Below, in pieces: positions 1-42,102 of a stretch of DNA of 64,000 nucleotides (the first letter of the stretch is position 1; every line of letters starts with the position of its first letter). Both the position numbers and the translations under genes were made by a program. This DNA is from a virus (Duplodnaviria > Heunggongvirae > Uroviricota > Caudoviricetes), in the IMG/VR virus record IMGVR_UViG_2913177423_000001, positions 1-64,000 of that record; one strand, given 5' to 3'. The notes below the pieces were generated by a model. That model searched no databases. It was not told where the DNA came from and was given only the letters and a program-made list of their open reading frames with translations.

Positions 1-4
1 CGAG

Positions 5-30
5 TTCTCTTAAACCAAGGTTTAAGATTA
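5..30. other. hix/gix/cix-like DNA-invertase crossover site
   Basis: 26-bp near-palindrome TTCTCTTAAACCAAGGTTTAAGATTA with AAACC-AA-GGTTT core typical of hix/gix sites; overlaps the stop codon of the adjacent invertase gene. Confidence 0.5.
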
Positions 31-609
31 AAAGGATGATGCCGGAAACTTTTTATAAAGCGTGGATACAGCAACATCATAGATAATTGCAATCTGCTTA
101 CGTGAGATGCCATTTTCCAGTAAACGGCGCATTTGCTGCCATGTTTCCTCTGGATATTTAGGCCGACGGCCTCCTATTCGGCCCTCTGCGCGAGCTGCAT
201 CAAGCCCGGCGCGAGTGCGCTCAATGATTAGTTCGCGCTCCATTTCAGCCAAGGCACCCATAACATGGAAGAAAAAACGCCCCATTGGTGTGCTGGTATC
301 GATGGAATCAGTGAGACTACGGAAATTAATGCCTCTGTCACGCAACTCTTCAACCAGCACAACCAGGTGGCGCATACTGCGCCCAAGCCTATCCAGCTTC
401 CAGACAACCAAAGTATCTCCTTCCGATAGTGTGCGTAGAACCTTTTTTAAACCAGGTCGATCGGCATTTTTCCCACTCGCCTTGTCCTCGAAAATTAGCT
501 CACATCCTGCGCATTCAAGCGCATTTCTCTGTAAGGCGGTGTTTTGGTCATTTGTTGATACGCGGATGTAACCAATAAGCATGTGCCTCCCCTTATATAT
601 GAACGGCAT
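28..609 (-). CDS. cin: serine recombinase, Hin/Gin/Cin-family DNA invertase
   Basis: 193-aa ORF; N-terminal GYIRVSTNDQ catalytic-serine motif, resolvase core VWKLDRLGRS, C-terminal HTH; close resemblance to P1 Cin and Mu Gin. Confidence 0.9.
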   Translation of the reverse strand: MPFIYKGRHMLIGYIRVSTNDQNTALQRNALECAGCELIFEDKASGKNADRPGLKKVLRTLSEGDTLVVWKLDRLGRSMRHLVVLVEELRDRGINFRSLTDSIDTSTPMGRFFFHVMGALAEMERELIIERTRAGLDAARAEGRIGGRRPKYPEETWQQMRRLLENGISRKQIAIIYDVAVSTLYKKFPASSF

Positions 610-672
610 TTTAGTTGGGAAATAACAAACTGGATAAGTTTAAGCGGCGTTAAACGTCATTTCTGGAGGGGT

Positions 673-999
673 ATGTTTGCAGATTATGAAAATCTGGCTG
701 TAGCAGTCATAACATCCCTGCTAAGTGGAACCGGTGTATTCCTTCTCGGGGTTAGGGACGGACGTATTTCTGCGTCACTGCTCAATCTCGCGAGTGAATT
801 GTTTACTGCGGTGACTGCCGGGCTTGCGGGGTTTTGGGTGGCGGATAGCTATGAATGGCCTGAAGGCATCATTTACTGCGTTGTTCTGATTGCCAGTAAC
901 AACGGTAGTGAAATTTTACAGGGCTTGAAGTCCAGAGCTAGCAACGTTTTGAATCTCTTAAGCGTAATAGCGAATGGGGGAAAAGGTGGAGAGAAATAA
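673..999 (+). CDS. small membrane protein, holin-like (position comparable to P1 lydA)
   Basis: ATG at 673 preceded by GGAGG; hydrophobic segments and charged C-terminus; the track start at 583 would overlap the invertase gene. Confidence 0.4.
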   Translation: MFADYENLAVAVITSLLSGTGVFLLGVRDGRISASLLNLASELFTAVTAGLAGFWVADSYEWPEGIIYCVVLIASNNGSEILQGLKSRASNVLNLLSVIANGGKGGEK

Positions 1000-1445
1000 T
1001 GGGTAACTTTGGGAATTATTTCATTTTTATCATGGCGTTTGTTGCCATCATTGACCGTTTCATTTTTCGTCGCAAGAGTGTTGAAATTTTGAGTATTGGT
1101 GACGCTGTAGTGAAAGAATCTGCTATCGCATTTCCTGTTTCGCTACGTGTTAAGCGAAGCTGGGTTAGCAATGCTCAAATCGAATATTGGCTGCAAGACC
1201 TGAAAAATCCATCTGTGGTTATTTCAGGGAAAACGCGACCAGTTGACGCTTCAAAACGCGGGGAGAGAGAAGAGTATTTGCTCATTGATACGAAATATCT
1301 TGAGCCAACGAAGTGGGATCTGAAAGTCACATTGACTAACGGTAACTGCCGACTGAATCCGCTTTATCGCATTTTCCCTATCAATGACTGCATAGAGCGC
1401 CAGTTTACGATCGAAAAACGTGAAGGAGACTGGAATGTCGAATAA
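999..1445 (+). CDS. hypothetical membrane-anchored protein (antiholin-like position)
   Basis: 148-aa ORF with N-terminal hydrophobic helix; start overlaps upstream stop. Confidence 0.4.
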   Translation: MGNFGNYFIFIMAFVAIIDRFIFRRKSVEILSIGDAVVKESAIAFPVSLRVKRSWVSNAQIEYWLQDLKNPSVVISGKTRPVDASKRGEREEYLLIDTKYLEPTKWDLKVTLTNGNCRLNPLYRIFPINDCIERQFTIEKREGDWNVE

Positions 1446-2052
1446 GGCTAATTATGTTCTTCTTAATTATGATGAGTTAAACGAAAAGGGACTGGCAAAA
1501 CTCGTCAAAGAAATCAGCAAAGGTGGTTACAAGATAGCGAGGGTGATCCCTGCCAGCAATGGCAGGAAGAAAGATGGGATCATGACACGCACGTTTACCC
1601 TTGTTGGTATTGATGAACAGACAATGGAAGTCCAGGTTAACGATACCGGAGATATATCTGGGATAAAACTGAACGGTAAAACAGTACCGTTCAAGCCAGT
1701 AAAAACAATGGCGGCTTTGGGGCAGTCTCTCGCGGCTTTATTTAATCGCGGAGCAACATCTTTCCAGAAATCATTAGCTCGAAAACTTGCTCGTGCAGCA
1801 AAAAATATTGATGAAGGAAATAAGAAGCGACAAGGGGTTAAATCCAACGCTCAGAAGTTAGCTGAAGCGAAAGAATCACGTGATGCGCTTCGTGAAGATA
1901 TCGCTAATGCTAACGACAAACTGGCTAAGATCCAAAGCAAGTCAGACAAGGCAATGCAAGATGCGGATAACGTTAAAGCGGCATTGTCTCAGGAACAAGC
2001 TAAGACGCGTGCGCTTAAAGAAGAAATCGCGCGTCTGGAGGATGAAGCATGA
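1435..2052 (+). CDS. hypothetical protein with C-terminal coiled coil
   Basis: ATG at 1435 with AAGGAG 6 nt upstream; Lys/Ala/Glu-rich C-terminus; stop overlaps next gene. Confidence 0.55.
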   Translation: MSNKANYVLLNYDELNEKGLAKLVKEISKGGYKIARVIPASNGRKKDGIMTRTFTLVGIDEQTMEVQVNDTGDISGIKLNGKTVPFKPVKTMAALGQSLAALFNRGATSFQKSLARKLARAAKNIDEGNKKRQGVKSNAQKLAEAKESRDALREDIANANDKLAKIQSKSDKAMQDADNVKAALSQEQAKTRALKEEIARLEDEA

Positions 2053-3998
2053 TTAAGAATCCCATACGGATCAATATTCAATCTACTTTCGCTGATACGA
2101 TTCCCGGTTATACACCGAGCCGCTGGTCTTCGGAGGATTTAAGTGAAGATGATCTGATTTTTGAAGCGGCTACATTAGAAGATATCGAGCTTGCCTATAT
2201 GGGCAATGAAATTCTTGTTGTGTCCGACGAAGCTATGTTTGAGGCCATTACTACGACCAGAATTAGGCTTGCACAAACAATGCGGGCTTTCGTGCGTGCG
2301 CTAAATCGTGGCTTGAATGGAACGAATATATCAGCAGGAACTGATGAAGCCGGGGCGGATGAAAATGGTCGGAATTGTATTGGCGGAGCAATTATCGGGC
2401 GTGTTCGTCGCGTAGCTAATATTCCTGTTTTAACAGCACAGATACCACTGACTGATGGGCAAAGCACAAGTATCATCTTCCACTCTCCAACCGCCGATGG
2501 CGCGAAAATCAAGAGTAATGATGAACTGGTTGCATTTCAGTTTTTACTTAATAAGCGTAACGTAACTCACGTTGTTGCCCCGATCGGCGGGAGAGATGTT
2601 TCTTTAAGCCAGGTTTGCCAGGCGCTTTCTAATTTGATTGAGCGTAACAGCGCAAAATTCAAGAAGGCAAAAGAGCGACAGGACAAAATGAAGGCGGATA
2701 TTGAGAGTTATCTCAATGAAGCTGATAAGCTGGCTGAAGAACGGTCAATGATGATTGAGCGGGTGGAAGTAGCGCAGCGTGGACTGACAGAAAAGCGCAA
2801 TGCCCTCGCGGAAATGCAGAAACAACTTGATGCACAGAAAGTCCTTAACGCAGAGTTGCAGGAAAAACGAGATAAGTTGCTGTCTTATAAAAAGAATAAA
2901 GCAAAAGAAAGAACTTTTAATGACCAACTTCGACACGTAAAACATAACCTTGCCACTGATGGTAAAACTACGCTGGATAACGGCGCTGTTGTAAATTATG
3001 TGACGTTAGATGGTGATAGCTTCGTTACGATCGCGGCACCAGAAGGTAATTTCAGTATTGATGTCGGTGACGTCAAAGGTGGCAGCCTGGCAGACGCGGC
3101 AACCAAACTACTTAAAGCCTATCGAGAACATAATGCTGATAAATACAAAGTAGATGTGTTGCCAGGACAGCCGGAGCCAACTGTTCAGTCACAGCCAGAA
3201 TTACAACAAGATTCTGATCCACAACCAGCATCTCCGCAAGATACTCAGCATGTAGGCAAATACCGCTATGCTCTTCAATCGCGCCCGGCGGGGGTTGGTG
3301 CGGTGCCGGATGGAAATACAGCCGTGCTTGACCGTCCCGACCAGGCTGACCCGTATTACGAGTATGCTCGTTACGGGATCATTACGTATGACCGTAAACT
3401 GACAGATGAAGAAGTCAGTCAGTATGAATTACGCTATCTACCTGATGACGATGAACTGAAAAATATGGCGGGGGAACTGGTTGCGTCCAGCATGGCAAAA
3501 CACATTGATGGCTATGTAGACCTGTTTGGCAGTGACTTGAAAACATTCAAGGCGCAAGTAAAAATTCTTTTCCGCAAAGAGTTTCCGAACGTGGCTTATC
3601 CGCTTGGTGATGGGGAGAACCTTTTCATTATGGACGTATATAACGCCCTTCAAAATCATTCAAACGAAGCAACGCCAGAGCCTGAATTAGCACCTGTAGT
3701 TGAGCCAGAATCACACCCACAAACAGAACCAGAGCAACAGCCAACGCCGGAAGATGCTGGAGAAGCGGCAACTGAAGCTGATCAGGAAGCAGATAAAGCG
3801 TTGGAGTACCTTAAATCCGTCCCGGTGCAGTTTACATCCCGCGATCTGACGGTAATCAGTGCCGAACTTGACCATGTGCAGGAAGCTGCAAACGCTCTTA
3901 TCAGTGCTGGTCGATACGACGAGAACGAATCAACGGTTGGCGCAGCAGTTGACTACCTGATCAACATTCTGGCTGAAATTCAGCAGGGAGGTGCTTAA
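2049..3998 (+). CDS. large acidic coiled-coil protein, possible DarA-like head-internal protein
   Basis: 649-aa ORF coupled to upstream gene; size and position after invertase and lysis-like genes recall the P1 darA operon; no motif-level confirmation. Confidence 0.5.
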   Translation: MIKNPIRINIQSTFADTIPGYTPSRWSSEDLSEDDLIFEAATLEDIELAYMGNEILVVSDEAMFEAITTTRIRLAQTMRAFVRALNRGLNGTNISAGTDEAGADENGRNCIGGAIIGRVRRVANIPVLTAQIPLTDGQSTSIIFHSPTADGAKIKSNDELVAFQFLLNKRNVTHVVAPIGGRDVSLSQVCQALSNLIERNSAKFKKAKERQDKMKADIESYLNEADKLAEERSMMIERVEVAQRGLTEKRNALAEMQKQLDAQKVLNAELQEKRDKLLSYKKNKAKERTFNDQLRHVKHNLATDGKTTLDNGAVVNYVTLDGDSFVTIAAPEGNFSIDVGDVKGGSLADAATKLLKAYREHNADKYKVDVLPGQPEPTVQSQPELQQDSDPQPASPQDTQHVGKYRYALQSRPAGVGAVPDGNTAVLDRPDQADPYYEYARYGIITYDRKLTDEEVSQYELRYLPDDDELKNMAGELVASSMAKHIDGYVDLFGSDLKTFKAQVKILFRKEFPNVAYPLGDGENLFIMDVYNALQNHSNEATPEPELAPVVEPESHPQTEPEQQPTPEDAGEAATEADQEADKALEYLKSVPVQFTSRDLTVISAELDHVQEAANALISAGRYDENESTVGAAVDYLINILAEIQQGGA

Positions 3999-4460: not shown

Positions 4461-5846
4461 TTGAACAAGTCAGTTACTTCTGCGCTTTCCGAGGCCGCAG
4501 ACATTAACAGCGTCATTGCTCTGGTTTCTTCATTAGAGAGGAAGGAAACACGCCTGGGGCGAAGTAGCTACGTAGTCACCAGCAAAGGCGCAGAGGTAAA
4601 GACAGCTTTTAAGGTTGTTGATGCCAGTAGCCTAATCATTTCGAATAACCTTGACGGTACGATTAACACTGCATTCCCGGAAGAACTCCAGCCACGTGAT
4701 CGTACACGTCTATCTAGCAAACTTCAGGTTAACCGTATTGCCTCCAATTTACGCCCAGCACAATTAACGGATTCAGGAATGAGTAGCCACGGAGCGCCAA
4801 TAGTTGGGCCTGACAACGTTGTTGAATCTGGTAATGGAAGGAGTATGGGGATCTGGCGCGCCTATGAGCAAGGACAGGCAGATGAATATCGCCAGTACCT
4901 GATCGACCATGCGAAAGAGTTTGGTCTGAATCCTGACGAAATTTCGCAAATGTCTATGCCCGTACTGGTGCGTGAAAGACTCACTGATGTAGATCGTGCG
5001 CAGTTCGCTCGCGATTCCAACATAAGTGATCTGCAAGAGATGGCGGCGAGTGAGAAAGCGTATGCTGATGCGCAATTCCTCACTGAGAGCGTCATGGCGC
5101 TATTTAATCCTTCAGAAGATGGAAATCTACTGGCGCGGTCCAATGATGCTTTTATTCGTGCGTTTTTGCGCGAAATAGGCGATACCGCGACGGCGGGTTT
5201 GCTTACTGCCGATGGGCGCCCTACGAAACAGCTGATCGACCGCATCCAGAATGCGATTTTTGCCAAAGCCTACAAAGATGAGCGACTGGTCCGGTTGGTG
5301 GCGGAAGAGCCAGATCCGGAAATGCGTAACATCCTGACCGCACTCAATACGGCAGCCAGCGATTTTGCGCAAATGCAGTCGCTGTCTGGCGACGTTCACC
5401 ATGACGCCGTAACTGGTTTAGTGGACGGTATAGAGCAGGTTAACGGTCTGGATACACAGGCAATTGCGGCACTCCAGGAAGCAATCAATCTTGTTCGTGA
5501 AGCCAAAGACAACGGTCAGGCCGTTGAAGAAGTGATCGCCCAAAGGGGGTTATTCGGCGACAGCACGCCAGAAGCAGAGGCGTTGGCGCTATTCATCGTA
5601 GCAAATAATCGTAGCGCGAAGCGTATGGGGGCAGCATTCAAAAAAATGGCGCAAAAAATCAACGACGAGCTGATTCATAAACAACAGGCGCTTGGCGATA
5701 TGTTCGGTGGTGAAGAAGTCGATTTGCGCAGTATTTTGTCTGTTGTTTCTGATGAAATTGAGGCTGAGTTTGGTGAAGGGAAAGGTCTGAACTTTGCTAT
5801 GTTCGAAAATTCTACAGCCCTAAATAATTGCAGTACGGAAAACTAA
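4461..5846 (+). CDS. hypothetical protein (461 aa), possible virion-associated protein
   Basis: long ORF; TTG start at 4461 preceded by GGGGGAG; no recognisable catalytic motif. Confidence 0.55.
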   Translation: MNKSVTSALSEAADINSVIALVSSLERKETRLGRSSYVVTSKGAEVKTAFKVVDASSLIISNNLDGTINTAFPEELQPRDRTRLSSKLQVNRIASNLRPAQLTDSGMSSHGAPIVGPDNVVESGNGRSMGIWRAYEQGQADEYRQYLIDHAKEFGLNPDEISQMSMPVLVRERLTDVDRAQFARDSNISDLQEMAASEKAYADAQFLTESVMALFNPSEDGNLLARSNDAFIRAFLREIGDTATAGLLTADGRPTKQLIDRIQNAIFAKAYKDERLVRLVAEEPDPEMRNILTALNTAASDFAQMQSLSGDVHHDAVTGLVDGIEQVNGLDTQAIAALQEAINLVREAKDNGQAVEEVIAQRGLFGDSTPEAEALALFIVANNRSAKRMGAAFKKMAQKINDELIHKQQALGDMFGGEEVDLRSILSVVSDEIEAEFGEGKGLNFAMFENSTALNNCSTEN

Positions 5847-5910
5847 ACCAACCGCTGAAATCACATACTGATTATGCTGCCGCGAAACTGGAAACAATTC
5901 GCGGTGATTC

Positions 5911-7593
5911 ATGGCAACGAAAGACAAAAACAAAGGTTTTCTGTCGGCATTGAAGAAAGCCTTCAACGGTGGTGATGTTACGCCCGCCGATCCGGTCGTT
6001 TTTACGAGCGGGCATAGTGTCGTTGCTCGTTCCGGCCTGTCCGCTTTACGTCCAGGCATCCTGGGGGGCAACAGCGATGGCATGACGAGTGCAGCAGATT
6101 CAATTTCTTTATCCGCTGAACTGCCCGGCGAGCGCCTGCAAAAGTACAACATCCTGGAAACGATGGCTAAAAGCCCGACTATCTCGACGGCTTTAAACAT
6201 TCACATTGCACATGCGCTTGCGCCTTCAAAAAAAACCGGGCTGGCATTCACGCTTTCGCCAAAAGATGGTTCCGATGCCGAGGCGGTAAGTAGATGTGAA
6301 GAGTTAACCGCAGATTTAGGGGCGATGATTAATGACGGTCTGCCTTCATGGGCCATGATTATGGCGATCTTTGGGGTGTCTTATGTCCGACCTTATGCTG
6401 AACAGGGCAGAGGGATAACTGGCATTGAATCCAGTTATTACACTCTTCCACACTTCGTCCAGGAATTTTATCGCGGTAGCCAGCTGGTCGGTTTCAGTGG
6501 TGATTACATTCTGGATACGCATAGTTTGCGCAGGGTAATAACCGAACCGTGGAATCTTGTTTCCATGAAAAACCCGTATTGGACGCCGCAGCATAAGGTT
6601 ATTCCGGTTAGCTACGGTACAAAAGGGTATTCACTGTTAAGTGATCAGGCTGATAAGCCGTTAATGGAGACGCAGAATTACGGAACTTCATTCCTGGAAT
6701 ACAGTTATGAACCCTACCTGAATTTATGTGCTGCGCTCGCCGCGCTGAAATCAACTCGAAATAATGCAGCCAAAATTGACCGTCTGATTGCTCTTACGAC
6801 GAACACACTGGACCCAGTTAATGCGGCTAACTATACGCGTGGCGTCAGCCAGGCATTGAAGCGTCATAGTGACCTGGTGGCACAAAGATCGATTAATGCC
6901 AACGCTATTCCTACGGTGCTTAACCATCTGATACCAGTTATGGGCGATGGGAAGAACGGCATCACTATTGATACGCAGTCTATACCCGCAGATATCAGCG
7001 GAATTGAAGACGTTATGTTTCATCTTCGTCAGTTAGCGGCCAGTTTAGGCATTGACGCCACGATGCTCGGTTGGGCAGATCAAATGAGTGGCGGGCTTGG
7101 AGAGGGAGGATGGCAACAAACTGCTATCCAAGCTGCATTACGTGCGAACTGGATCAGACAGGCCGCCCAGCGAACTATTTATCGGCTTCATGACATTCAC
7201 CTCGCCTACAAATACGGGAAGGTTTACACCGAAACAAACCGCCCGTATGACGTGCAATTCAACTCAATGAACACGGCTATCCAGGAGGAAGAAAACCGAG
7301 AACTGGATGCGCGCGCCAACTTTGTAGCTGTCATCTCGCAAATTATGGACCAGGTCCAGAACAACCCGAAACTGGCTGGTAGCGACGCGTTTATGCGCTA
7401 TCTGTTCACCGAACAGCTGCACATCGACGATGACACTCTCAATACCATGATCAAAGAGTTTAAGGCGAATGAATCAGAGCAAAACAACGAGCATGGCATG
7501 TACGAATCCGCGCCGTTGTCGTCAGGCGACAATCCAGAAAACTGGACGCTAGAGCAGTTAATCAACTTTGCAAAATTTGTGATGAGCAATTAA
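5911..7593 (+). CDS. hypothetical 560-aa protein, portal-protein candidate by size and context only
   Basis: ATG at 5911; long ORF in same rightward operon; no diagnostic motif seen. Confidence 0.4.
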   Translation: MATKDKNKGFLSALKKAFNGGDVTPADPVVFTSGHSVVARSGLSALRPGILGGNSDGMTSAADSISLSAELPGERLQKYNILETMAKSPTISTALNIHIAHALAPSKKTGLAFTLSPKDGSDAEAVSRCEELTADLGAMINDGLPSWAMIMAIFGVSYVRPYAEQGRGITGIESSYYTLPHFVQEFYRGSQLVGFSGDYILDTHSLRRVITEPWNLVSMKNPYWTPQHKVIPVSYGTKGYSLLSDQADKPLMETQNYGTSFLEYSYEPYLNLCAALAALKSTRNNAAKIDRLIALTTNTLDPVNAANYTRGVSQALKRHSDLVAQRSINANAIPTVLNHLIPVMGDGKNGITIDTQSIPADISGIEDVMFHLRQLAASLGIDATMLGWADQMSGGLGEGGWQQTAIQAALRANWIRQAAQRTIYRLHDIHLAYKYGKVYTETNRPYDVQFNSMNTAIQEEENRELDARANFVAVISQIMDQVQNNPKLAGSDAFMRYLFTEQLHIDDDTLNTMIKEFKANESEQNNEHGMYESAPLSSGDNPENWTLEQLINFAKFVMSN

Positions 7594-7606
7594 CCGGAGG
7601 GAAATA

Positions 7607-8605
7607 ATGCAATCACTGAACACTGTTACGGATCGCTTCTCCCTGGTAGAGAAAATCCGCAAACACACACCGCAGAACAATCGAAATTACGTTATTCAGT
7701 CGGTGCGAGACACATTCAACTCCCCAGAAACAAAAGAGCGTATCGCACTTGGTGAGATGTATGGCTATTACGGACATGGTCGCCGGGCGATGCACTATAA
7801 CAAAACGAAAAGCCTGAACCTGCCGGAAGTCTCTGTTGTGATGGTTGATGGGAAACCTGTTGTATTGGAGAACGTGCCATCAAACAGGACTATCGACATT
7901 TCGATTGACGACAACGGCATTGTTACCCATACGCAGGAAATACTGGATACAGACACCGGGCGTATTGTACAGGGAATGATTAATTCTGGTGCGGGTGGTT
8001 GGTCGTGGGCTACATCTGGCCCAGATTCATCTGTATCTCTGGTAAAGTCTTTTCACGGCTTTGATTACGTAACTGTGCCTAACTATATCAGTCTGGACAA
8101 GAAAAGCCTGATGCTGGAATCAGCAGAAGAGCGCGACGCGGCTATTCATGCGGCACTTATCGAACAAGGTTTTACCGATAACGCGGCTACGGATCTTGTT
8201 CACCACTTTTCAGCAATGAAGAATCAGCAGGCTATTTTCGAGTCAGCACAGCGTGAAGCCCTTGAGTCAGAATTGATGCTCCTTGAAGTGGAAAATATGC
8301 AACTTCGCGACAAATTACGCAACCAGGCCGAAATGATGGAAAGCCAAGGCGAAGATGCGAAGAAATGCCGTAGGATTTTGCGTGATGCTATCCAGGAAAT
8401 GCCTGTTTTTATCAGCGCAGAACAGCGCCGGGCGCTCTGCCGTATGCAGTCTGAAGATGATGCTCGCATAGTGGCTGCGATGCTTGAATCTCTGGGGGCA
8501 AATGCGACTTATGGCTTGCCGATATCAGGCAAGAAAGAGCCGGAGTTATCGCCGAAGGAGAGCAAAAATACTACCCCATTACTCTTCGTTTCGCGACGGG
8601 CATAA
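7607..8605 (+). CDS. hypothetical 332-aa protein with C-terminal coiled coil
   Basis: ORF 13 bp downstream of preceding gene; last gene of the block before a terminator. Confidence 0.5.
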   Translation: MQSLNTVTDRFSLVEKIRKHTPQNNRNYVIQSVRDTFNSPETKERIALGEMYGYYGHGRRAMHYNKTKSLNLPEVSVVMVDGKPVVLENVPSNRTIDISIDDNGIVTHTQEILDTDTGRIVQGMINSGAGGWSWATSGPDSSVSLVKSFHGFDYVTVPNYISLDKKSLMLESAEERDAAIHAALIEQGFTDNAATDLVHHFSAMKNQQAIFESAQREALESELMLLEVENMQLRDKLRNQAEMMESQGEDAKKCRRILRDAIQEMPVFISAEQRRALCRMQSEDDARIVAAMLESLGANATYGLPISGKKEPELSPKESKNTTPLLFVSRRA

Positions 8606-8615
8606 CTGCCATATG

Positions 8616-8632
8616 AAATTAAATTTCTAACA
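8616..8632 (-). promoter_or_regulatory. C1-like operator motif copy
   Basis: AAATTAAATTTCTAACA, reverse complement of the recurrent TGTTAGAAAATTAATTT motif. Confidence 0.5.
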
Positions 8633-8720
8633 TAGTGTATTTATATACACTGTTGATCCTGTCCGATGTGATCGAGTAGGATCGCGGTCACTGCTCCGGT
8701 AGCGACTGCCAAAAAAAAGC

Positions 8721-8746
8721 AAAAGCCGCTGAGAAGCGGCTTTTTG
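8721..8746. terminator. bidirectional intrinsic terminator
   Basis: GCCGCT-gaga-AGCGGC hairpin flanked by A-run upstream and T-run downstream. Confidence 0.7.
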
Positions 8747-8748
8747 GT

Positions 8749-8776
8749 GTATAAATCTACGGACATAGATTTATAC
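8749..8776. promoter_or_regulatory. perfect 11-bp inverted repeat, candidate operator
   Basis: GTATAAATCTA-cggaca-TAGATTTATAC immediately upstream of gene 8806..9768. Confidence 0.4.
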
Positions 8777-8805
8777 GGTAGATAGATTTTTCACGGAACT
8801 ATCTG

Positions 8806-9768
8806 GTGAATATTTTAAATTCAGTTTCAGTAACTTTCAACACTTCTGAGTATAAAAACAACACTGAATACCACAAAAAAATCAAAGGTCATCAGTTGAG
8901 TTTTTTTGCTCGCCACTGTGGTTTTCTTTCCCCTTCACATAGCGCCATTATTGCCGAGTTCGCCAACCTGGCAGGGGCTACCGATGAATACATGATCCGT
9001 CGCTCATATGCCGATATGTCAGATATTACGGGACGCAGTATTTCAACTGTACGCCGGGCATTTGCTGAAGCGACGAAGTGTGGAATGCTTGTTAAACAAC
9101 ACCAGGTGGCGAATAACAATGCCCAGGTTTGTAACGTATATCGGTTTACAACACAATTTCTCCACTTCATTCATGTTGCAATGGAGATCGGGGGTAAGCA
9201 GGGCATTAAATTTGCCAACGCAACAAAACTGGTTAAGCAGTTGATTTCAAAGGTTCGTTATTTTTTTGAAACTGGGAACCCCCTGTTCAAATTGAACAAG
9301 TCCCCCCATGTTCAAAATGAACAGCCAATAGAAAATAAGAGTAAACCCATAACCAAAAGAAGAGAAAGATCATGCGCGGTTCAGCCGAAGGCTTCACCAG
9401 CAGATAGTTCTCAAGCGGGTAATGGCTTACTGGATAAAAAACCAGTGATTAGAGAAGAGCATGTCAACCACAGCCTGGCTGCGGCAAAAGCGAGAGCTGC
9501 AAAGCGTCGTTCAGACGAGGGCTATGCAAAACAACAGGCTCTGTATCGTACCGCTGAAAAGCTGGCAAAAAAATTTGCATGGATACGTAATGCAGCTGCC
9601 GCAGTGAATAAGCCCAAACCATCCAGTGCTCTGGATTTCTCTATGGATTATTCTGGCTATCAGGGATGTAAAACAGTTGCTGAAGCCTTTGAACTGATGA
9701 AACAGCGTGGCTATCAGTCTGAATTTGACCGTGAAGATTGGTCAGTTCCAGCGGGCTTCAGAGGATGA
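8806..9768 (+). CDS. winged-helix DNA-binding protein, possible regulator or replication initiator
   Basis: 320-aa ORF with GTG start; HTH-like segment DITGRSISTVRRAFAEATKCGMLVK; basic C-terminal region. Confidence 0.4.
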   Translation: MNILNSVSVTFNTSEYKNNTEYHKKIKGHQLSFFARHCGFLSPSHSAIIAEFANLAGATDEYMIRRSYADMSDITGRSISTVRRAFAEATKCGMLVKQHQVANNNAQVCNVYRFTTQFLHFIHVAMEIGGKQGIKFANATKLVKQLISKVRYFFETGNPLFKLNKSPHVQNEQPIENKSKPITKRRERSCAVQPKASPADSSQAGNGLLDKKPVIREEHVNHSLAAAKARAAKRRSDEGYAKQQALYRTAEKLAKKFAWIRNAAAAVNKPKPSSALDFSMDYSGYQGCKTVAEAFELMKQRGYQSEFDREDWSVPAGFRG

Positions 9769-9841: not shown

Positions 9842-10183
9842 GCTGTTGCTAAATCGCAATGTATGATCTGCATCATCGACTGAAATCATCCATTGCTGAA
9901 ATTTTTAGTTGATCTTCCTAATGTTCAGGCTTATATTCACGTCGTCGTAGCAAATTCTGCGACCAGGTTTGACAGCCTGAATGTTAGTGCGGACAACCGC
10001 AGATTTCCGATATTGCGGTATTTTTGTGTCCGTAAACCGCGTTACGCCCGAATTATGGTGGGGCGTGATGGGGAGGCTTCGGCCTGCTGGTTTCACTAAC
10101 GCCAGTCTGTCAACCCTGTCACGTCCTGCCACCTGTTTGACAGCGGGTAGCAGGTTGTTAAACCTGTTAGTGAGGCCGTAACT

Positions 10184-10408: not shown

Positions 10409-11115
10409 TGGATATCTGCATTCTTGAAAAGCCATCAATGACCAGCATTGAGATCGCGGAGCTGGTGGGAAGTCGTCCAGATAACGTAAAAATATCAATA
10501 GAGCGCCTGGCTAAATCTGGAGTTATTCAACTTCCTGCATTGCAGGTTTTCGAAAAAATCAATAACTTAGGACTACGCCGTAGTGTCGAGGCTTACGTCT
10601 TCGAAGGCGAGCAAGGCAAACGAGACAGCATTATTGTCGTTGCGCAGCTCTCTCCCGAATTCACCGCCCGGCTGGTGGACCGCTGGCGCGAACTGGAAGA
10701 ACAAGCACGCCAGCCGTTGACCGAAATAGAGATGATCGCCGCAATGGCTGCAAATGCAGTTCAGCAACAAAAGCGGCTTCATGTTGTTGAGTCAAAGGTT
10801 AGCCAGGTGGTAGAAACCGTCGAGCAAATCAAGAAGGGCAACATGCCAGATGGTTACATTGGCTACCGCCAGCTGGCGGCGAAATGTGGCCTGACCGAAG
10901 CCAAATGTCGCAACCTGGTTAACGCTTACCGGATTCCCACCGATACGCATGAGTTTTTAACGCCAGAGGGGATATTGTCGCGTCGTTCTATTGTGGCCTT
11001 ATTTCCCTTTATGAACGCTTTTACCCTGATGATGTCGGAGGCCGAGCGCCGCGGGAAACGCTGGTATCACCCAAGAATGGGCCAATTCCAGGTGATCGGT
11101 TGGGGAGGTGAGTGA
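10408..11115 (+). CDS. Rha-family phage regulatory protein
   Basis: N-terminal MTSIEIAELVGSRPDNV motif typical of Rha proteins; ATGA coupling; paralog of 47168..48094. Confidence 0.6.
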   Translation: MDICILEKPSMTSIEIAELVGSRPDNVKISIERLAKSGVIQLPALQVFEKINNLGLRRSVEAYVFEGEQGKRDSIIVVAQLSPEFTARLVDRWRELEEQARQPLTEIEMIAAMAANAVQQQKRLHVVESKVSQVVETVEQIKKGNMPDGYIGYRQLAAKCGLTEAKCRNLVNAYRIPTDTHEFLTPEGILSRRSIVALFPFMNAFTLMMSEAERRGKRWYHPRMGQFQVIGWGGE

Positions 11116-23811: not shown

Positions 23812-23888
23812 GGTGGTGTAGCTCAGTAGGATAGAGCAGCAGCCTTCTAAGCTGTCGGTCGGTGGTTCGAATCCACTCACCATCGCCA
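23812..23888 (+). tRNA. tRNA-Arg (anticodon UCU)
   Basis: cloverleaf readable by eye: acceptor GGTGGTG/CACCATC, D-arm GCTC-AGTAGGATA-GAGC, anticodon loop CTTCTAA, T-loop TTCGAAT, encoded CCA. Confidence 0.8.
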
Positions 23889-23892
23889 AATT

Positions 23893-23968
23893 GCCGATTT
23901 AGCTCAGTTGGTAGAGCAGTCGCTTTGTAAGCGAATGGTCAGCGGTTCGATCCCGTTAATCGGCACCA
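23893..23968 (+). tRNA. tRNA-Thr (anticodon UGU)
   Basis: acceptor GCCGATT/AATCGGC, D-arm GCTC-AGTTGGTA-GAGC, anticodon loop TTTGTAA, T-loop TTCGATC, encoded CCA. Confidence 0.8.
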
Positions 23969-25440: not shown

Positions 25441-25516
25441 GGCCCCTTAGCTCAGTGGTTAGAGCTGGCGACTCATAATCGCACGGCCATCGGTTCAAAT
25501 CCGGTAGGGGCCACCA
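25441..25516 (+). tRNA. tRNA with CAU anticodon, probably tRNA-Ile2 (lysidine) rather than Met
   Basis: acceptor GGCCCCT/AGGGGCC, D-arm GCTC-AGTGGTTA-GAGC, anticodon loop CTCATAA, T-loop TTCAAAT, CCA; 5-prime half resembles enterobacterial ileX as recalled. Confidence 0.75.
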
Positions 25517-34877: not shown

Positions 34878-35651
34878 ATGGAAAGCACCAAAACAACTCA
34901 ATACCGCTTGCGTAATGGCCTGCTGGTGGCTGTTAACGCCGACATGTCACTGCCGTTTGACACGATAGAACGCACTATCATGACGTATCTCGGCTTTAAT
35001 GAAGAGCTGAATGAAGAGCATGGCGTAGCTATATGGAGTGATGCAGACAGCGGCGTTCGTCGTTACATCACTGCCAGAGGCAAAGACTACTCTCTGGAAG
35101 AACTGTTTACCCTTGCGCAGTCTTTCGAATGTGTAGCATTGGACCTGTTTAATGATCCTGCTATAGCGCAACGACTTATCCGCGAGCTTGGGCTGTCGGT
35201 TACCCCAATTATCTTTAAAAATGGCAGCCTGACTGGCACATGGCGCGTAGAGCGCATCTCAAACTACCTTCCATATAACCGCCAGTTAAACGGGGTAATT
35301 TCCGGCGTCAATCAGCCTGTAGCGTGTGAAAACGCAAACCTGGTTGTCGCTGTTTTGGCAACTGCATGTCGCGTTATTGGTTTGACTAAACAGGCATTTA
35401 TCCATTTTCCCAATGGTGCAGAAGGTGGCGTAGAAATTATCGCGTGTGATTTCGAATTTACCTGGATGCTTCGTGAATATCTGGACCGAACAGTGTTCCG
35501 CGCCGAAGAACTGGATCTGTATATCACGTCAACGATTCCTGATGATGTGCGAGCTGAAGCAATCGCTACAGCCAGAGCGAAATGCCGTGCGTCGATTGCA
35601 GAACAAGCCAAAGAAGAAGTTACAGTTAAGGAAGTGGCAGATGGTAACTAA
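34878..35651 (+). CDS. hypothetical protein (257 aa)
   Basis: ATG at 34878; stop overlaps start of next gene. Confidence 0.5.
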   Translation: MESTKTTQYRLRNGLLVAVNADMSLPFDTIERTIMTYLGFNEELNEEHGVAIWSDADSGVRRYITARGKDYSLEELFTLAQSFECVALDLFNDPAIAQRLIRELGLSVTPIIFKNGSLTGTWRVERISNYLPYNRQLNGVISGVNQPVACENANLVVAVLATACRVIGLTKQAFIHFPNGAEGGVEIIACDFEFTWMLREYLDRTVFRAEELDLYITSTIPDDVRAEAIATARAKCRASIAEQAKEEVTVKEVADGN

Positions 35652-36735
35652 GAGCAATATTTATAAAGATCCGCGCTGGCTGTCGCTGGTGGAGAAATAT
35701 AAAGACAATTGGGTACTGGCAGCAAAAGAATTGTTTGATATTGATTTAAGCCACCAGCAACAACAAATTGTTGAAGCTATACAGCCCAATAATGCAAAAG
35801 CTACTGTCACCACTCCGCATGGGATCGGACGACCGCAAGTGCTTGCTGTTATTAGTACCCTTTATACGATTATGTATCCTGATTCCCGGACAGTAATTGT
35901 TTATCCAAAATCAAATGCTTGCAAAAGAGGAATTGTTGCATATGTGTGGCAATGTTGGGAGGCATTGCTGAAAAAACAACCTTTTATCATTGAGTATTTT
36001 AAGGTCGGTGATAGCGGTCTGATGTTCAATGAATTTTGGGGAATGTGCTTTTGTAACTACCGCCTTAACTATGAAGATAGCATTGCAGGTCACTACGCCG
36101 ACCATCTTTTATTCATTATTGTGGATTCCGCACATATCAGCGATCGGGCATACAGTATTGTGTGGGCAAGCATGACTAGTGGTGATTCACGCATATTGCT
36201 CACTTCAATTCCGTCACCAGAGGAAATAGGCTTTTTTTATGATTCACATCATGGACGTGCTTTAGCTGAAGATAATCCGAGTGGTGTCTATAAAGCCATT
36301 AAGCTGAGTGCTGAGGATTCACCATTTATTACCCAAGAATATCTTGATCATTTTGCCGAAAGGTATGGCGGGCGAAATAGTGATGACTATCGTCGTATGA
36401 TTCTTGGTGAGTTCCCTGGTATTAGGGAGGCTGTTCTTGAATCAGATATGCCGAAGACAATGCGCTTTTCGATGCCTGATGGTAGTGAATGGACAATGCC
36501 ATTACGAGTGATAGCCCGGCATCATGCGCAGCACCACGCCAAAAAACATAGCGTCACGACATTAGAATGGTTGAAATCGCACACTATTCCACTCTTCACT
36601 GCAGATCACAATGCTATCGTTGAGTGGGCCAAAACAATTCCGTGGGAGCATGTCGCTGAATACGCTCACATGCTAAAACCGCCGAAAGACAGACACGAAA
36701 TTAGCTGGCTGACAGCCGAAAAAATCATTGAATGA
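35641..36735 (+). CDS. terminase large-subunit ATPase-domain paralog with degenerate Walker motifs
   Basis: ATG at 35641 overlapping upstream stop; aligns to PacB-like N-terminus (DPRW, QQQ-I, GFFYDSHH, DNP-G, SPF-T) but Walker A is PHGIGRPQ and Walker B IIVDSAH; no nuclease domain. Confidence 0.6.
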   Translation: MVTKSNIYKDPRWLSLVEKYKDNWVLAAKELFDIDLSHQQQQIVEAIQPNNAKATVTTPHGIGRPQVLAVISTLYTIMYPDSRTVIVYPKSNACKRGIVAYVWQCWEALLKKQPFIIEYFKVGDSGLMFNEFWGMCFCNYRLNYEDSIAGHYADHLLFIIVDSAHISDRAYSIVWASMTSGDSRILLTSIPSPEEIGFFYDSHHGRALAEDNPSGVYKAIKLSAEDSPFITQEYLDHFAERYGGRNSDDYRRMILGEFPGIREAVLESDMPKTMRFSMPDGSEWTMPLRVIARHHAQHHAKKHSVTTLEWLKSHTIPLFTADHNAIVEWAKTIPWEHVAEYAHMLKPPKDRHEISWLTAEKIIE

Positions 36736-36743
36736 TATCAACA

Positions 36744-36775
36744 AAAAGCCCGCCTGGTCTGGCGGGCTTCTTTTC
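36744..36775. terminator. bidirectional intrinsic terminator
   Basis: GCCCGCC-tggtct-GGCGGGC hairpin with A-run before and T-run after, between convergent genes. Confidence 0.7.
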
Positions 36776-37163
36776 ATAACACAGGGCAATCGTCAAATTC
36801 CCCACTCCGGGCATCATTGATGATGTGGGTGATCACGCCAAACACAGCATTGCTGCCTGTATATCCATCGTCATCCTTCGGCAACGCTTCCTTCTTGCCG
36901 GATCTTAAATCCTCCAGGTGCTGATGCGGATGCTTCCGGTATCTCTTTACGCGATATTCCCCCTCTATAGCACATACAAGCAGCGAACCATCAACTGGAG
37001 TGAGTGAGGAATCGACCACAAGCAACGCTCCTTGCAATATGCCTTCGCGGTAATGGCTGTCAGCCGCCCGCATGAAGTAGGTGGCTGATGGATGCCTGAT
37101 TAGGTGCTGATCAAGAGATATGCGGCGTTCAGCGTAATCCGCCGCAGGAGAAGGGAAGCCCAT
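36774..37163 (-). CDS. humD: UmuD-prime-like protein (HumD-like)
   Basis: 129 aa; S24 peptidase core LLVVDSSLTPVDGSLLVCAIEGEYRVKRY lacking the UmuD N-terminal arm, as in P1 HumD. Confidence 0.8.
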   Translation of the reverse strand: MGFPSPAADYAERRISLDQHLIRHPSATYFMRAADSHYREGILQGALLVVDSSLTPVDGSLLVCAIEGEYRVKRYRKHPHQHLEDLRSGKKEALPKDDDGYTGSNAVFGVITHIINDARSGEFDDCPVL

Positions 37164-37181
37164 AGCGTTTTCACCTCTAAA

Positions 37182-37201
37182 TACTGTTTATATATACAGT
37201 A
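37182..37201. promoter_or_regulatory. LexA (SOS) box
   Basis: TACTGTTTATATATACAGTA, perfect CTGT-N8-ACAG, about 20 bp upstream of humD start. Confidence 0.8.
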
Positions 37202-37261
37202 TACATTAAAGAGGCTTGAAGTGTGCAATAGAGCGATGCTTTGCGCTCGCCTGGTGGCGCG

Positions 37262-37513
37262 TTATTTTTTGGCTATATCATCTTTCTGATATACCGGATC
37301 GTTCCCTTTTGGCAGCTGGAGGCTTAACTGCCGGTAGTGCCGTAGCCGTTCCATGAAATAGGTGCGCAGGTTCTCCGGCTGCTCACGGGCTACCTGTTCC
37401 GCTATGACGGGTATGTTCAATCGCTCTTTGTAGGCTACGCCGCTGGCAGCAAGATCTACGTTTACCTTGTCTCGCTCTTCCTGATTTTTAGCCGCAATAT
37501 TCCAGTCTGACAT
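37262..37513 (-). CDS. hot: DNA polymerase III theta-subunit homolog (Hot-like)
   Basis: 83 aa; [36 protein letters not shown] closely matches HolE. Confidence 0.8.
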
Positions 37514-37534
37514 AAAATAGCCCTAATTTATTGA

Positions 37535-37948
37535 TTAGTGTTCATCCCAGGGAGACATATCCGGAAGGGTATCAACAATACGGAATTTACCGGGATAACG
37601 GTATCTACAGCCCGCCTGAGTCCATACAGTAACGACAAATCCCCCGCCCTGTTCATCTTCAGGTAGCAGGCGATCTGCTTGCTCGGAAACCATGTGGACC
37701 ACAAAAGGAGCATCACTACCGTCTTCGAATAGCACCTCAAGGGCGTCCCGGCCTTCCAGGCTACCTCTGCTGATGATGACATATTCTGCACCGCGCATTT
37801 CTTTCAACAAATGCTTTGCGGAGTCAGGCACAAGCAACCTGGCTGCGCCAGCGTTCCACGAGAGATACACATATCCAGCTCGTGCATTTTCTGACTTCCA
37901 GTAGTCAGTTTCCTTTAACGCCTGACCTTCGTTCTTAATGAAAAACAT
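37535..37948 (-). CDS. hypothetical protein (137 aa)
   Basis: ATG at 37948 preceded by AAGGGAG; track start lies further upstream. Confidence 0.5.
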   Translation of the reverse strand: MFFIKNEGQALKETDYWKSENARAGYVYLSWNAGAARLLVPDSAKHLLKEMRGAEYVIISRGSLEGRDALEVLFEDGSDAPFVVHMVSEQADRLLPEDEQGGGFVVTVWTQAGCRYRYPGKFRIVDTLPDMSPWDEH

Positions 37949-38030
37949 AAAAACTCCCTTTTCAAATTTTCGAGTAAACAACTTAGCGCGGAATCAGTAT
38001 TCGCCCCAAGATGTAAAAAGTCCACCAGCG

Positions 38031-38297
38031 TTATGGTTCGCATTTCCATATGGTGTTCTGAACGCCAGTACCGGGCGCGAGATGGGGGTTAGCGTTCGCG
38101 CTATGCTGATATACGGCTTTAGACTTTCCATATTGCTGACAGGCTTTATCTGCGGTTTTTTGCAGGCTATCCAGCCCATACCAGCCATCTGACTGAATGC
38201 TTACCTTTTCACCGTCGTTGTATTGCACCATCGCACACCCGGACATAGCCAACATCGCACCGACAATAACGCTTTTCCATAAAACTCTATGCAACAT
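38031..38297 (-). CDS. small lipoprotein
   Basis: signal peptide with lipobox LAMSGC; ATG at 38297 after GAGGGGA. Confidence 0.5.
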   Translation of the reverse strand: MLHRVLWKSVIVGAMLAMSGCAMVQYNDGEKVSIQSDGWYGLDSLQKTADKACQQYGKSKAVYQHSANANPHLAPGTGVQNTIWKCEP

Positions 38298-38366
38298 ATA
38301 CAAAAATCCCCTCTGTGAATTAAGGGGATTTTAACATGGTGATCGGATATCAGCTTTATCCGGAAT

Positions 38367-39119
38367 TTAATCAGCCTCCAGTGGCAATAACGCCTTAGCC
38401 ATTTCATGAATCAGCATGGCATCAATGACGCCTAGCGTATGGCCCGGCTTAATCTTTAATGCGGCCTCAAGATAGCCTCTTTCCAGAGTGGTTTTTACGC
38501 TTTTCCTGGGCGCTTGTTGGGGACTATCCGGAAGATCCGGATGGTTGCCAGCCTCATAAGCTACCCGCAACCAGTGCATGAATGTTTCCGCAGACACACA
38601 ACCACAGTCCACATCGATTTTCCCGCGTTGCTGTTCCAGCCATTGCTCAAAATCTAACTTGCAAGCCTTACTTTCAAGTTCATCACCATTGAACTCGACT
38701 TTCTGCGACGCTATGAGAGCGGCTTCGTACTGTTCGCGAGAGACAACTGACTGGTATTCATCGCTATCAAGGTCACGAATTGGAAGCTCAATCTCACGAC
38801 AAAAATTCCGCCCATAGAACTGGTCTTTTTTGTGGTCTGAGCCAAAAGCAAAAGTCGCGCATGGCGCCATTAAATTGACACTGAGTATGTGACAATAACT
38901 CATGCCATCAGGCCATCCGCCGCACTTAGGCAACTCCTTCACTAATAAGTCGATCAGCTTCATTGTTTTACCATCTTTGCAAGTCGCCAAAGCCATTTGA
39001 GCAAGCGCCAATACTTCATCTGCCGTATATCCAGCACCGTGACCATACATTTCTATTCGGGAAATAATCTCTGATATACGCTCTTTATTGATTCTGATCA
39101 TAGTTCTATTTCCTTGCAT
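38367..39119 (-). CDS. hypothetical protein (250 aa)
   Basis: long ORF in leftward operon; Cys-rich; no motif recognised. Confidence 0.5.
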   Translation of the reverse strand: MQGNRTMIRINKERISEIISRIEMYGHGAGYTADEVLALAQMALATCKDGKTMKLIDLLVKELPKCGGWPDGMSYCHILSVNLMAPCATFAFGSDHKKDQFYGRNFCREIELPIRDLDSDEYQSVVSREQYEAALIASQKVEFNGDELESKACKLDFEQWLEQQRGKIDVDCGCVSAETFMHWLRVAYEAGNHPDLPDSPQQAPRKSVKTTLERGYLEAALKIKPGHTLGVIDAMLIHEMAKALLPLEAD

Positions 39120-39322
39120 GGTTCGCCTTTACGGCACACAGTAGCGCGATCATTTCTCACATTAACCACTGTCACCGTCCCATCATCACATTGAGTAACA
39201 ATGAAAGGGTATTCGCTCTCTTTTATGCAATGTTGCTGTTCTCCAGCCGTTACAACAAAGGGGATTAATAAAGTCAAAAGCACTGCTAATTTACTAAATG
39301 TAGCCATAGCGATCGTTACCAT
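39098..39322 (-). CDS. small secreted Cys-containing protein
   Basis: N-terminal signal-like hydrophobic segment then four Cys. Confidence 0.4.
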   Translation of the reverse strand: MVTIAMATFSKLAVLLTLLIPFVVTAGEQQHCIKESEYPFIVTQCDDGTVTVVNVRNDRATVCRKGEPCKEIEL

Positions 39323-39784: not shown

Positions 39785-39796
39785 AATTACTCCGTG

Positions 39797-41612: not shown

Positions 41613-41627
41613 TGTTCATCTCCTTGT

Positions 41628-41909: not shown

Positions 41910-41912
41910 AGG

Positions 41913-42101: not shown

Positions 42102-42102
42102 A

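What the first reader, a model, noticed from the sequence alone, without database searches (positions are those of the whole stretch)
5..30. hix-like crossover site at the 3-prime end of the invertase gene, partner site not in window
The sequence TTCTCTTAAACCAAGGTTTAAGATTA closely resembles known Hin/Gin crossover sites but overlaps the stop codon of the invertase gene rather than its promoter. No second matching site or leftward-reading tail-fibre ORFs were seen to the right of the invertase, so the invertible segment probably lies to the left, outside this window, or the arrangement is Hin-like with the invertase inside the segment.
Basis: partly seen in the sequence, partly recalled or inferred. 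Interest (0 to 1): 0.4.

Follow-up and report, generated by a model that had tools for sequence, protein, structure and literature searches.

The report
P1-type cixL inversion site, ordinary
The sequence is the left crossover site (cixL) of the well-known phage P1/D6 tail-fibre inversion switch; it overlaps the end of the invertase gene exactly as in P1, and its partner site sits at the other end of the same assembly contig, so this is an ordinary, already described arrangement.

Summary
The 26-bp site TTCTCTTAAACCAAGGTTTAAGATTA is at window 5-30. It is unique in the 64 kb and overlaps the stop codon (28-30, minus strand) of a 184-aa serine invertase.

It is the orthologue of cixL of phages P1, P7 and D6, matching in 24 of 26 positions. 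Those GenBank records annotate the same layout: the cin 3' end lies inside cixL, crossover is at the central AA, the invertible tail-fibre C segment lies beyond cixL, and cixR lies inside tail-fibre gene S.

The window is the first 64,000 nt of contig RHJQ01000032.1 (83,414 nt) of Escherichia sp. E14S1, a D6-like phage-plasmid. The contig starts 4 nt inside cixL. An independent assembly, identical over 20.7 kb, shows that it ends 4 nt inside an inverted cixR (record 83,385-83,410) within gene S. The missing DNA between the contig ends is therefore the invertible segment, where short-read assemblies break.

In close relatives the 4,455-bp segment between the two sites occurs in both orientations, as exact reverse complements.

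The Hin-like alternative is rejected.

The only peculiarity is two G>A changes in the outer half-site. One shortens Cin by 2 aa, and both make the site more symmetric. Low interest; already known.

The parts
5..30 (.). cixL: 26-bp Cin crossover site. The inner half-site TTCTCTTAAACC belongs to the invertible segment; the central dinucleotide is AA; the outer half-site GGTTTAAGATTA lies in the cin 3' end.
   Evidence: Sequence read and unique in the window. It aligns base for base with the annotated cixL of P1, P7 and D6, identical in 24/26 positions. The half-sites agree in 10/12 positions.
17..18 (.). Central AA dinucleotide: the predicted point of the 2-nt staggered cleavage and strand exchange, and the boundary of the invertible segment.
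   Evidence: P1 and P7 records annotate the crossover at the homologous position. In relatives the segment between the central dinucleotides of cixR and cixL is an exact reverse complement between assemblies, 4455/4455.
1..31 (.). Full Cin-binding region, by homology to the P1 'protein_bind Cin' feature. The contig, and so the window, begins at its first base.
   Evidence: The P1 protein_bind feature at L003 7001-7031 aligns with window 1-31. Window position 1 is record position 1 of RHJQ01000032.1.
28..582 (-). cin: serine DNA invertase, 184 aa, catalytic Ser9 in the YIRVSTNDQ motif. The stop TAA at 28-30 lies inside cixL, two codons earlier than in P1/D6.
   Evidence: Pfam Resolvase plus HTH_7. 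172/184 identical to P1 Cin and 175/184 to D6 Cin. The best solved relative is Mu Gin 3UJ3, E 1.7e-89. The exact protein is WP_130210525.1 of Escherichia sp. E14S1.
493..564 (-). Recombinational enhancer (Fis-binding, sis-type) inside the 5' coding part of cin, assigned by homology.
   Evidence: Aligns without gaps to the annotated 'enhancer of Cin-mediated C-segment inversion' of P1 (L003 7493-7564), 64/72 identical. Function is inferred, not tested.

Best explanation
Window 5-30 is cixL, one of the two crossover sites of a P1/D6-type Cin DNA-inversion switch carried by a D6-like phage-plasmid of Escherichia sp. E14S1. Mechanism, from established knowledge of the Hin/Gin/Cin/Pin invertases: Cin dimers bind cixL and the inverted partner cixR, which lies inside tail-fibre gene S. 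Together with the Fis-bound enhancer in the cin 5' coding region they form an invertasome. Both sites are cut with a 2-nt stagger at the central AA, one pair of subunits rotates 180 degrees, and the ends are rejoined. This flips the segment between the sites, so the constant 5' part of S (Sc) is joined to one of two alternative 3' ends (Sv or Sv') with its matching chaperone (U or U'), and host range changes. The outer half of cixL doubles as the last codons and stop codon of cin, as in P1. The partner is absent from the window because the contig is broken at both sites: it runs from cixL around the whole replicon to cixR, and the invertible segment with its inverted repeats was not joined by the short-read assembler. 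Shown here: the site, the invertase, the partner site and its orientation, the position in S, and natural inversion in relatives. Inferred: enhancer function, the activity of this particular allele, and the content of the unassembled segment.
For: The site is 24/26 identical to the annotated cixL of P1, P7 and D6, with the same register relative to cin. Cin is an intact serine invertase, 93-95% identical to P1 and D6 Cin. The enhancer is 64/72 identical to that of P1. The window is collinear with D6 from cixL around the genome. The window is the start of RHJQ01000032.1. The far end of that contig carries pmgB, sit, pmgA, bplA, gp16 and R, then S, which runs off the end after 410 codons. Logan contig SRR8068136_218 is identical to RHJQ over 20,708/20,708 nt. 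It shows cixR, TTCTCTTAAACCAAGGTATTGGATAA, at record 83,385-83,410, inverted relative to cixL and with the same central AA; the contig ends 4 nt inside it. Every relative with an intact cin has cixL plus an inverted cixR 3.5-5.9 kb away in S. In relatives L013/L014, L017/L018 and L010/L011 the 4,455-bp segment between the central dinucleotides is the reverse complement (4455/4455, 4454/4455, 4431/4455), with identical 300-nt flanks. Literature: the P1 C segment is flanked by cixL and cixR and inverted by Cin, switching S and S' (bioRxiv 10.1101/2022.07.24.501295). D6-like plasmids have a 'tail fiber gene inversion region' with a cin invertase (PMC6799933).
Against: The invertible segment of this isolate was not seen, so its length, gene content and number of sites are unknown. 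No read-level evidence of both orientations in this isolate could be examined. The cixL allele (A at site positions 21 and 26) and the 2-aa-shorter Cin are untested: the exact combination was found nowhere else, and the best of 223 PLSDB plasmid matches to window 1-80 is 74/80. Identity of the Logan contig with the far end of the RHJQ contig is shown up to record 82,819; the last 595 nt are extrapolated from it.
Confidence: 0.93

Rival explanations
1. Hin-like layout: the invertase gene itself lies inside the invertible segment, with the second site upstream of cin.
For: In Salmonella the hin gene is inside the H segment (own knowledge).
Against: There is no second site anywhere in 64 kb to the right of cin. 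The partner is found inside S at the other contig end, so that cin lies outside the segment. All homologous replicons have cin outside the segment.
Confidence: 0.01
2. Decayed or frozen switch: the site is a true cixL homologue, but the system no longer inverts in this replicon. The cause could be the premature stop in cin, the altered outer half-site, or a rearranged C segment.
For: Decay is common among relatives. cin is deleted or IS-disrupted in L015, L016, L019 and L023-L026. A 3'-truncated or fused cin lacking cixL occurs in L030-L035. This Cin lacks the last two residues (QS) found in P1/D6.
Against: Both sites are intact with matching central AA. Cin keeps Ser9 and both domains. Lengths of 181-186 aa occur among close homologues. 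The two substitutions make the outer half-site closer to the inner one, 10/12 versus 8/12 in P1. One of them (A at site position 21) is shared with E. ruysiae plasmids that have a complete cixL/cixR pair. The assembly breaks at exactly both sites, as expected when a repeat-bounded segment lies between them.
Confidence: 0.05
3. Chance resemblance or assembly artefact at a contig end.
For: The site sits within 4 nt of a contig end, where artefacts can occur.
Against: Zero matches are expected by chance. The site is at the orthologous position in P1, P7, D6 and dozens of plasmids. Closely related Logan contigs carry the one-step variant at the same place (L039, L040).
Confidence: 0.005

Closest known systems
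Phage P1 Cin/cix C-segment inversion system (also P7)
   Same: Same invertase (172/184 aa identical). Same 26-bp site (24/26) with identical inner half and central AA. Same overlap of the cin 3' end and stop codon with the outer half of cixL. Same enhancer position inside cin (64/72). Same partner position inside tail-fibre gene S. Same neighbours lydA, lydB, hdf, darA.
   Different: There are two G>A changes in the outer half-site, at window 25 and 30. The stop codon is two codons earlier, giving a Cin of 184 rather than 186 aa. There is no lydC gene and no C1 operator stretch between cin and lydA. The backbone is D6-like rather than P1-like.
Escherichia phage D6 and D6-like plasmid prophages (cin, cixL/cixR annotated in MF356679.1)
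   Same: The window is collinear with D6 over all 64 kb at about 84-95% nt identity. The same cin-cixL-C segment-cixR-S layout is annotated. Cin is 175/184 identical. [quoted passage not shown]
   Different: cin and cixL are among the more diverged parts, at about 85% nt identity over cin. The cixL allele is unique. Several regions, such as 35.6-43.4 kb, lack D6 homology.
Phage Mu Gin/gix G-segment inversion
   Same: Homologous invertase: Gin structure 3UJ3 is the best solved match, E 1.7e-89. Same type of 26-bp site, Fis-dependent enhancer in the invertase 5' coding region, and tail-fibre S/U switching (own knowledge).
   Different: Here, as in P1, the site overlaps the 3' end of the invertase gene.
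Salmonella Hin/hix flagellar phase variation
   Same: Same invertase family, same site anatomy, and same requirement for an enhancer and Fis (own knowledge).
   Different: hin lies inside the invertible segment, which carries a promoter rather than alternative gene ends. That layout was tested here and not found.
Plasmid p15B Min/mix multiple-inversion system
   Same: A P1-related plasmid with a homologous invertase that switches tail-fibre 3' ends (own knowledge; the P1 record notes p15B homology next to cin).
   Different: p15B has six crossover sites and complex inversions. Every relative examined here has only two sites. The segment of this isolate is unseen, so a multi-site version cannot be excluded.

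Membership tests
P1-type Cin/cix inversion system (Hin/Gin/Cin/Pin 'Din' invertase family) | Small serine recombinase with an N-terminal catalytic domain (active-site Ser9/10) and a C-terminal HTH | tested here: met
   Resolvase E 4.4e-51 and HTH_7 E 1e-17. YIRVSTNDQ motif with Ser9. 93% identical to P1 Cin. Gin 3UJ3 E 1.7e-89.
P1-type Cin/cix inversion system (Hin/Gin/Cin/Pin 'Din' invertase family) | 26-bp crossover site: two imperfectly symmetric 12-bp half-sites around a 2-bp core | tested here: met
   TTCTCTTAAACC-AA-GGTTTAAGATTA, half-sites 10/12. 24/26 identical to annotated P1/D6 cixL.
P1-type Cin/cix inversion system (Hin/Gin/Cin/Pin 'Din' invertase family) | A second site in inverted orientation on the same replicon, with the same central dinucleotide | tested here: met
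   cixR TTCTCTTAAACC-AA-GGTATTGGATAA lies at RHJQ01000032.1 83,385-83,410, inverted. It was read from Logan contig SRR8068136_218, which is identical to RHJQ over 20,708 nt. It is not inside the window.
P1-type Cin/cix inversion system (Hin/Gin/Cin/Pin 'Din' invertase family) | cin lies outside the segment, with its 3' end and stop codon inside cixL (the P1 hallmark) | tested here: met
   The stop is at window 28-30 inside site 5-30. In P1 the cin CDS 7022-7582 overlaps cixL 7008-7027.
P1-type Cin/cix inversion system (Hin/Gin/Cin/Pin 'Din' invertase family) | cis-acting Fis-dependent recombinational enhancer within the invertase 5' coding region | tested here: inconclusive
   Window 493-564 is 64/72 identical, without gaps, to the annotated P1 enhancer. 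Fis binding and enhancer activity cannot be tested with these tools.
P1-type Cin/cix inversion system (Hin/Gin/Cin/Pin 'Din' invertase family) | The invertible segment carries alternative tail-fibre 3' ends and chaperones (Sv/U and Sv'/U') in opposite orientation, bounded by inverted repeats | not testable with these tools
   The segment of this isolate lies between the contig ends and was not retrievable. It is present in every relative with an intact cin. Sc, with cixR 1.2 kb from its start, is present on this contig.
P1-type Cin/cix inversion system (Hin/Gin/Cin/Pin 'Din' invertase family) | The segment actually inverts (both orientations observed) | tested here: inconclusive
   Both orientations are seen between near-identical relatives, as exact reverse complements bounded by the central dinucleotides. 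For this isolate only the assembly break at both sites is seen; the reads could not be examined.
Hin-type layout (invertase inside the invertible segment) | Crossover sites flank the invertase gene | tested here: not met
   There is no site upstream of cin in 64 kb. The partner lies beyond the 3' end of cin, in S.

The most novel reading that the evidence does not exclude
The outer half of cixL is both Cin-binding DNA and the last codons of cin. In this allele a single G>A (window 30) both creates an earlier stop, shortening Cin by 2 aa, and makes the half-site more symmetric. A second G>A (window 25), shared with E. ruysiae plasmids, does the same for symmetry, giving 10/12 versus 8/12 in P1. 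This could be a tuned variant with altered, perhaps higher, inversion frequency. Separately, the unassembled segment of this isolate could be a multi-site, p15B Min-like shuffling region rather than a simple two-site C segment.
Probability: 0.08. Interest if true: 0.25.

Novelty: already known. Interest (0 to 1): 0.07.

Why it matters
It matters little beyond annotation. It identifies the window as a D6-like phage-plasmid of Escherichia sp. E14S1 with an apparently intact tail-fibre host-range switch. It also explains why the contig starts and ends where it does: short-read assemblers break at the cix sites and inverted repeats. The practical lesson for genome scans is that a lone invertase site at a contig end usually means the invertible segment was left out of the contig. 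The allele, in which one base change alters both the recombinase C-terminus and its own binding site, is a small curiosity about overlapping constraints.

Tried and rejected
1. Second site in the window: I searched with the full 26-mer (up to 3 mismatches), the 16-mer inner part (up to 3 mismatches) and the core AAACCNNGGTTT. Only the site itself was found, plus one chance-level 16-mer at 39569 with a central AC.

2. The exact cixL/cin-3' variant was not found in IMG/VR viral contigs (0 hits) or in PLSDB plasmids (best 74/80).

3. I looked up the closest Cin variants hoping for a left flank.
- P0002 (95% identical, 197 aa) turned out to be a 3'-deleted or fused cin lacking cixL.
- P0134, the closest 186-aa Cin, sits on Logan contigs that also stop 30 nt past the cin stop, inside the site.
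- P0122 (E. ruysiae) gave complete P1-like loci with the one-step variant cixL and a normal cixR.

I got round this with exact-sequence cluster look-ups.

5. The RHJQ contig itself was not displayed for the last 595 nt, so the identical Logan contig was used instead.

6. The Lobocka et al. 2004 P1 genome paper could not be read. The statement of Hiestand-Nauer and Iida (1983) that cin terminates at cixL is from memory; the NC_005856 annotation is the tool-based evidence for it.

7. The promoter scan of 1-1100 gave nothing above chance, so no cin promoter is claimed.

8. ORFs in the D6-unrelated region 35.5-43.4 kb gave no Pfam matches.

Full report
**Observation**

Window 5-30 reads TTCTCTTAAACCAAGGTTTAAGATTA. 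It is the only match in the 64-kb window with up to three mismatches, against 0.00 expected from shuffles. The family core AAACCNNGGTTT also occurs only here, against 0.05 expected. The site consists of two 12-bp half-sites that agree in 10 of 12 positions around a central AA.

On the minus strand, an ORF at 28-582 encodes a 184-aa protein with Resolvase and HTH_7 domains. Its stop codon occupies window 28-30, the last three bases of the site.

**What it is**

Window 1-3000 is 88.7% identical to Escherichia phage D6, a P1 relative. The D6 record annotates the homologous 20 bp as 'cixL; Cin mediated inversion site'.

The curated records of P1 (NC_005856) and P7 show the same anatomy in detail:
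- cixL, with the crossover between the two central bases.
- The cin CDS ending six bases into the annotated site.
- A Cin protein-binding region that aligns with window 1-31.
- An enhancer inside the 5' coding part of cin.
- The invertible C segment (Sv', U', U, Sv) beyond cixL.
- cixR 4.0-4.3 kb away, inside tail-fibre gene S.

A base-by-base alignment shows that the window site is identical to P1, P7 and D6 cixL except at window 25 and 30, both G>A. The invertase is 172/184 identical to P1 Cin and 175/184 to D6 Cin, with the catalytic serine motif intact. Its best solved relative is Mu Gin, 3UJ3, E 1.7e-89. The stretch homologous to the annotated P1 enhancer (window 493-564) is 64/72 identical.

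As I recall, Hiestand-Nauer and Iida described it in 1983; here it rests on the GenBank annotation.

**Where the partner is**

The exact Cin protein is encoded on NCBI contig RHJQ01000032.1 (83,414 nt) of Escherichia sp. E14S1, at record positions 28-582. The first 10,582 nt of that record are identical to the window, so the window is the first 64,000 nt of the contig and window position 1 is the contig end.

The window is collinear with D6 from cixL (D6 32,165) down through the origin to D6 55,798. The remaining 19,414 nt of the contig should therefore end near D6 36,384, and D6 cixR is at 36,404-36,423.

I walked along the contig using exact-protein look-ups. Record 62,112-82,819 carries tub, a Rep3 gene, pmgB, sit, pmgA, bplA, gene 16 and R. 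Then comes S, which starts at 82,184 and runs off the contig end after 410 codons.

An independent Logan assembly of run SRR8068136 (contig 218) is identical to RHJQ over 20,708/20,708 and 11,085/11,085 compared bases and extends nine bases further. It shows cixR, TTCTCTTAAACCAAGGTATTGGATAA, at record 83,385-83,410. This site is inverted relative to cixL, has the same central AA, and lies 1.2 kb into S.

The contig therefore begins four bases inside cixL and ends four bases inside cixR. Its two ends are the same 21 nt in inverted orientation. The contig is the whole replicon minus the invertible segment. Closely related Logan contigs break at the same places, with 30-nt overlaps (L039, L040, L045, L046, L048). 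This is what de Bruijn assemblers do at a repeat boundary.

**Evidence that such sites work**

Twenty relatives that share an identical LydA or LydB protein were fetched. Every one with an intact cin has cixL and an inverted cixR 3.5-5.9 kb away in S.

Between near-identical relatives, the 4,455 bp lying between the central dinucleotides of the two sites is an exact reverse complement, while the 300-nt flanks are identical. The counts are L013 vs L014 4455/4455, L017 vs L018 4454/4455 and L010 vs L011 4431/4455. That is natural inversion precisely at these sites.

The literature agrees. P1 C-segment inversion at cixL/cixR by Cin switches the S and S' fibres and host range (bioRxiv 10.1101/2022.07.24.501295). 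D6-like plasmid prophages carry a 'tail fiber gene inversion region' with cin (PMC6799933).

**Mechanism**

This is inferred from established knowledge of the family. Cin dimers bind cixL and cixR. With the Fis-bound enhancer they form an invertasome on supercoiled DNA. Ser9 cleaves both sites with a 2-nt stagger at the central AA, one subunit pair rotates 180 degrees, and the ends are religated. The constant part of S then reads into the other variable end, with its cognate chaperone.

**What is particular here**

The two substitutions lie in the outer half-site, which is also coding sequence for the Cin C-terminus.
- G>A at window 25 is shared with E. ruysiae P1-like plasmids that have a complete cixL/cixR pair (L036-L038), and with the closest Cin variant (L039, L040).
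- G>A at window 30 was found nowhere else. It turns CAA into TAA, so Cin ends ...PASSF instead of ...PASSFQS.

Both changes bring the outer half-site closer to the inner one, 10/12 against 8/12 in P1. Close homologues range from 181 to 186 aa. I therefore expect the allele to be functional, but this is untested.

**Rivals**

- A Hin-like layout is excluded by the absence of any site upstream of cin and by the position of cixR.
- A decayed switch is possible but unlikely, about 5%. Decay is frequent among relatives: cin is lost to IS elements or deletions in L015, L016, L019 and L023-L026, and is 3'-fused without cixL in L030-L035. In this replicon, however, all recognisable parts are intact.
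- Chance or artefact is excluded by conservation of both sequence and position.

**Verdict**

This is an orthologous copy of the well-characterised P1/D6 cixL. It is already known and of low interest.

Noticed in passing
window 1 (start of contig RHJQ01000032.1) and the contig's other end (record 83,414; seen through L046 11651-11689): The contig begins 4 nt inside cixL and ends 4 nt inside cixR, so its two ends are the same 21 nt in inverted orientation. Related Logan contigs (L039, L040, L045, L048, L049) stop at the same sites. This is an assembly break at the invertible segment, not a biological end.
   Followed up: yes
L013 vs L014, L017 vs L018, L010 vs L011 (locus positions 4549-9003): Near-identical D6-like plasmids from different assemblies carry the 4,455-bp C segment in opposite orientations, as exact reverse complements bounded by the central dinucleotides of cixR and cixL. 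This gives population-level evidence of active inversion.
   Followed up: yes
L015 8736-8761 and L030 10809-10834; compare L019 about 6952 and L024 about 7278: A hybrid site joins the cix inner half plus AA (..TTCTCTTAAACCAA) to CGGAAATGCGTGGG. In other relatives that sequence lies in the middle of a tail-fibre assembly (Caudo_TAP) gene, after ..GATTATCAGAAATGGGA. It looks like the product of Cin recombination between a cix site and a secondary (quasi) site, which would have fixed the tail-fibre region.
   Followed up: partly
L030-L035 (cin at L030 10001-10594): A 197-aa Cin variant (P0002, 95% identical; Shigella flexneri and others) has lost its last codons and cixL, so the ORF reads on into unrelated sequence. 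In L034 the S gene directly abuts and overlaps cin. These are switches frozen by deletion.
   Followed up: partly
L016, L019/L024, L012, L013, L047: IS elements sit in or next to the inversion and dar region of relatives: DDE_Tnp_1 or rve transposases replace cin, IS21 lies in ddrB, and IS605/TnpB-type genes are nearby. Loss of cin with retention of cixR is common.
   Followed up: no
window 9931-10136 and 46709-46899: There are two C4 antisense RNA loci (Rfam RF01695, 68.8 and 73.7 bits). The first follows a c4-a1b1 target element and the second follows an isrK-like RNA. Each is close to a Roi/Rha-type antirepressor homology (the regions 10550-11081 and 47156-47858 cross-match D6). So there are two immI-like immunity modules, as in D6.
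   Followed up: no
window 23812-23968 and 25441-25516: There are three tRNA genes (Arg-TCT, Thr-TGT, Met-CAT). The D6 record annotates Ser, Thr and Asn tRNAs at the corresponding place, so the tRNA set differs between these relatives.
   Followed up: no
window about 35,620-43,380: This stretch has almost no nucleotide homology to D6. Seven of its larger ORFs (for example 35446-36735, 429 aa) have no Pfam match. It is accessory cargo of unknown function.
   Followed up: partly
window 583-672: The cin-lydA intergenic region is short, 90 bp. It lacks the lydC gene and the C1-operator-bearing stretch present in P1 and P7. It shares a conserved GGAAATAACAAACTG motif with D6.
   Followed up: no
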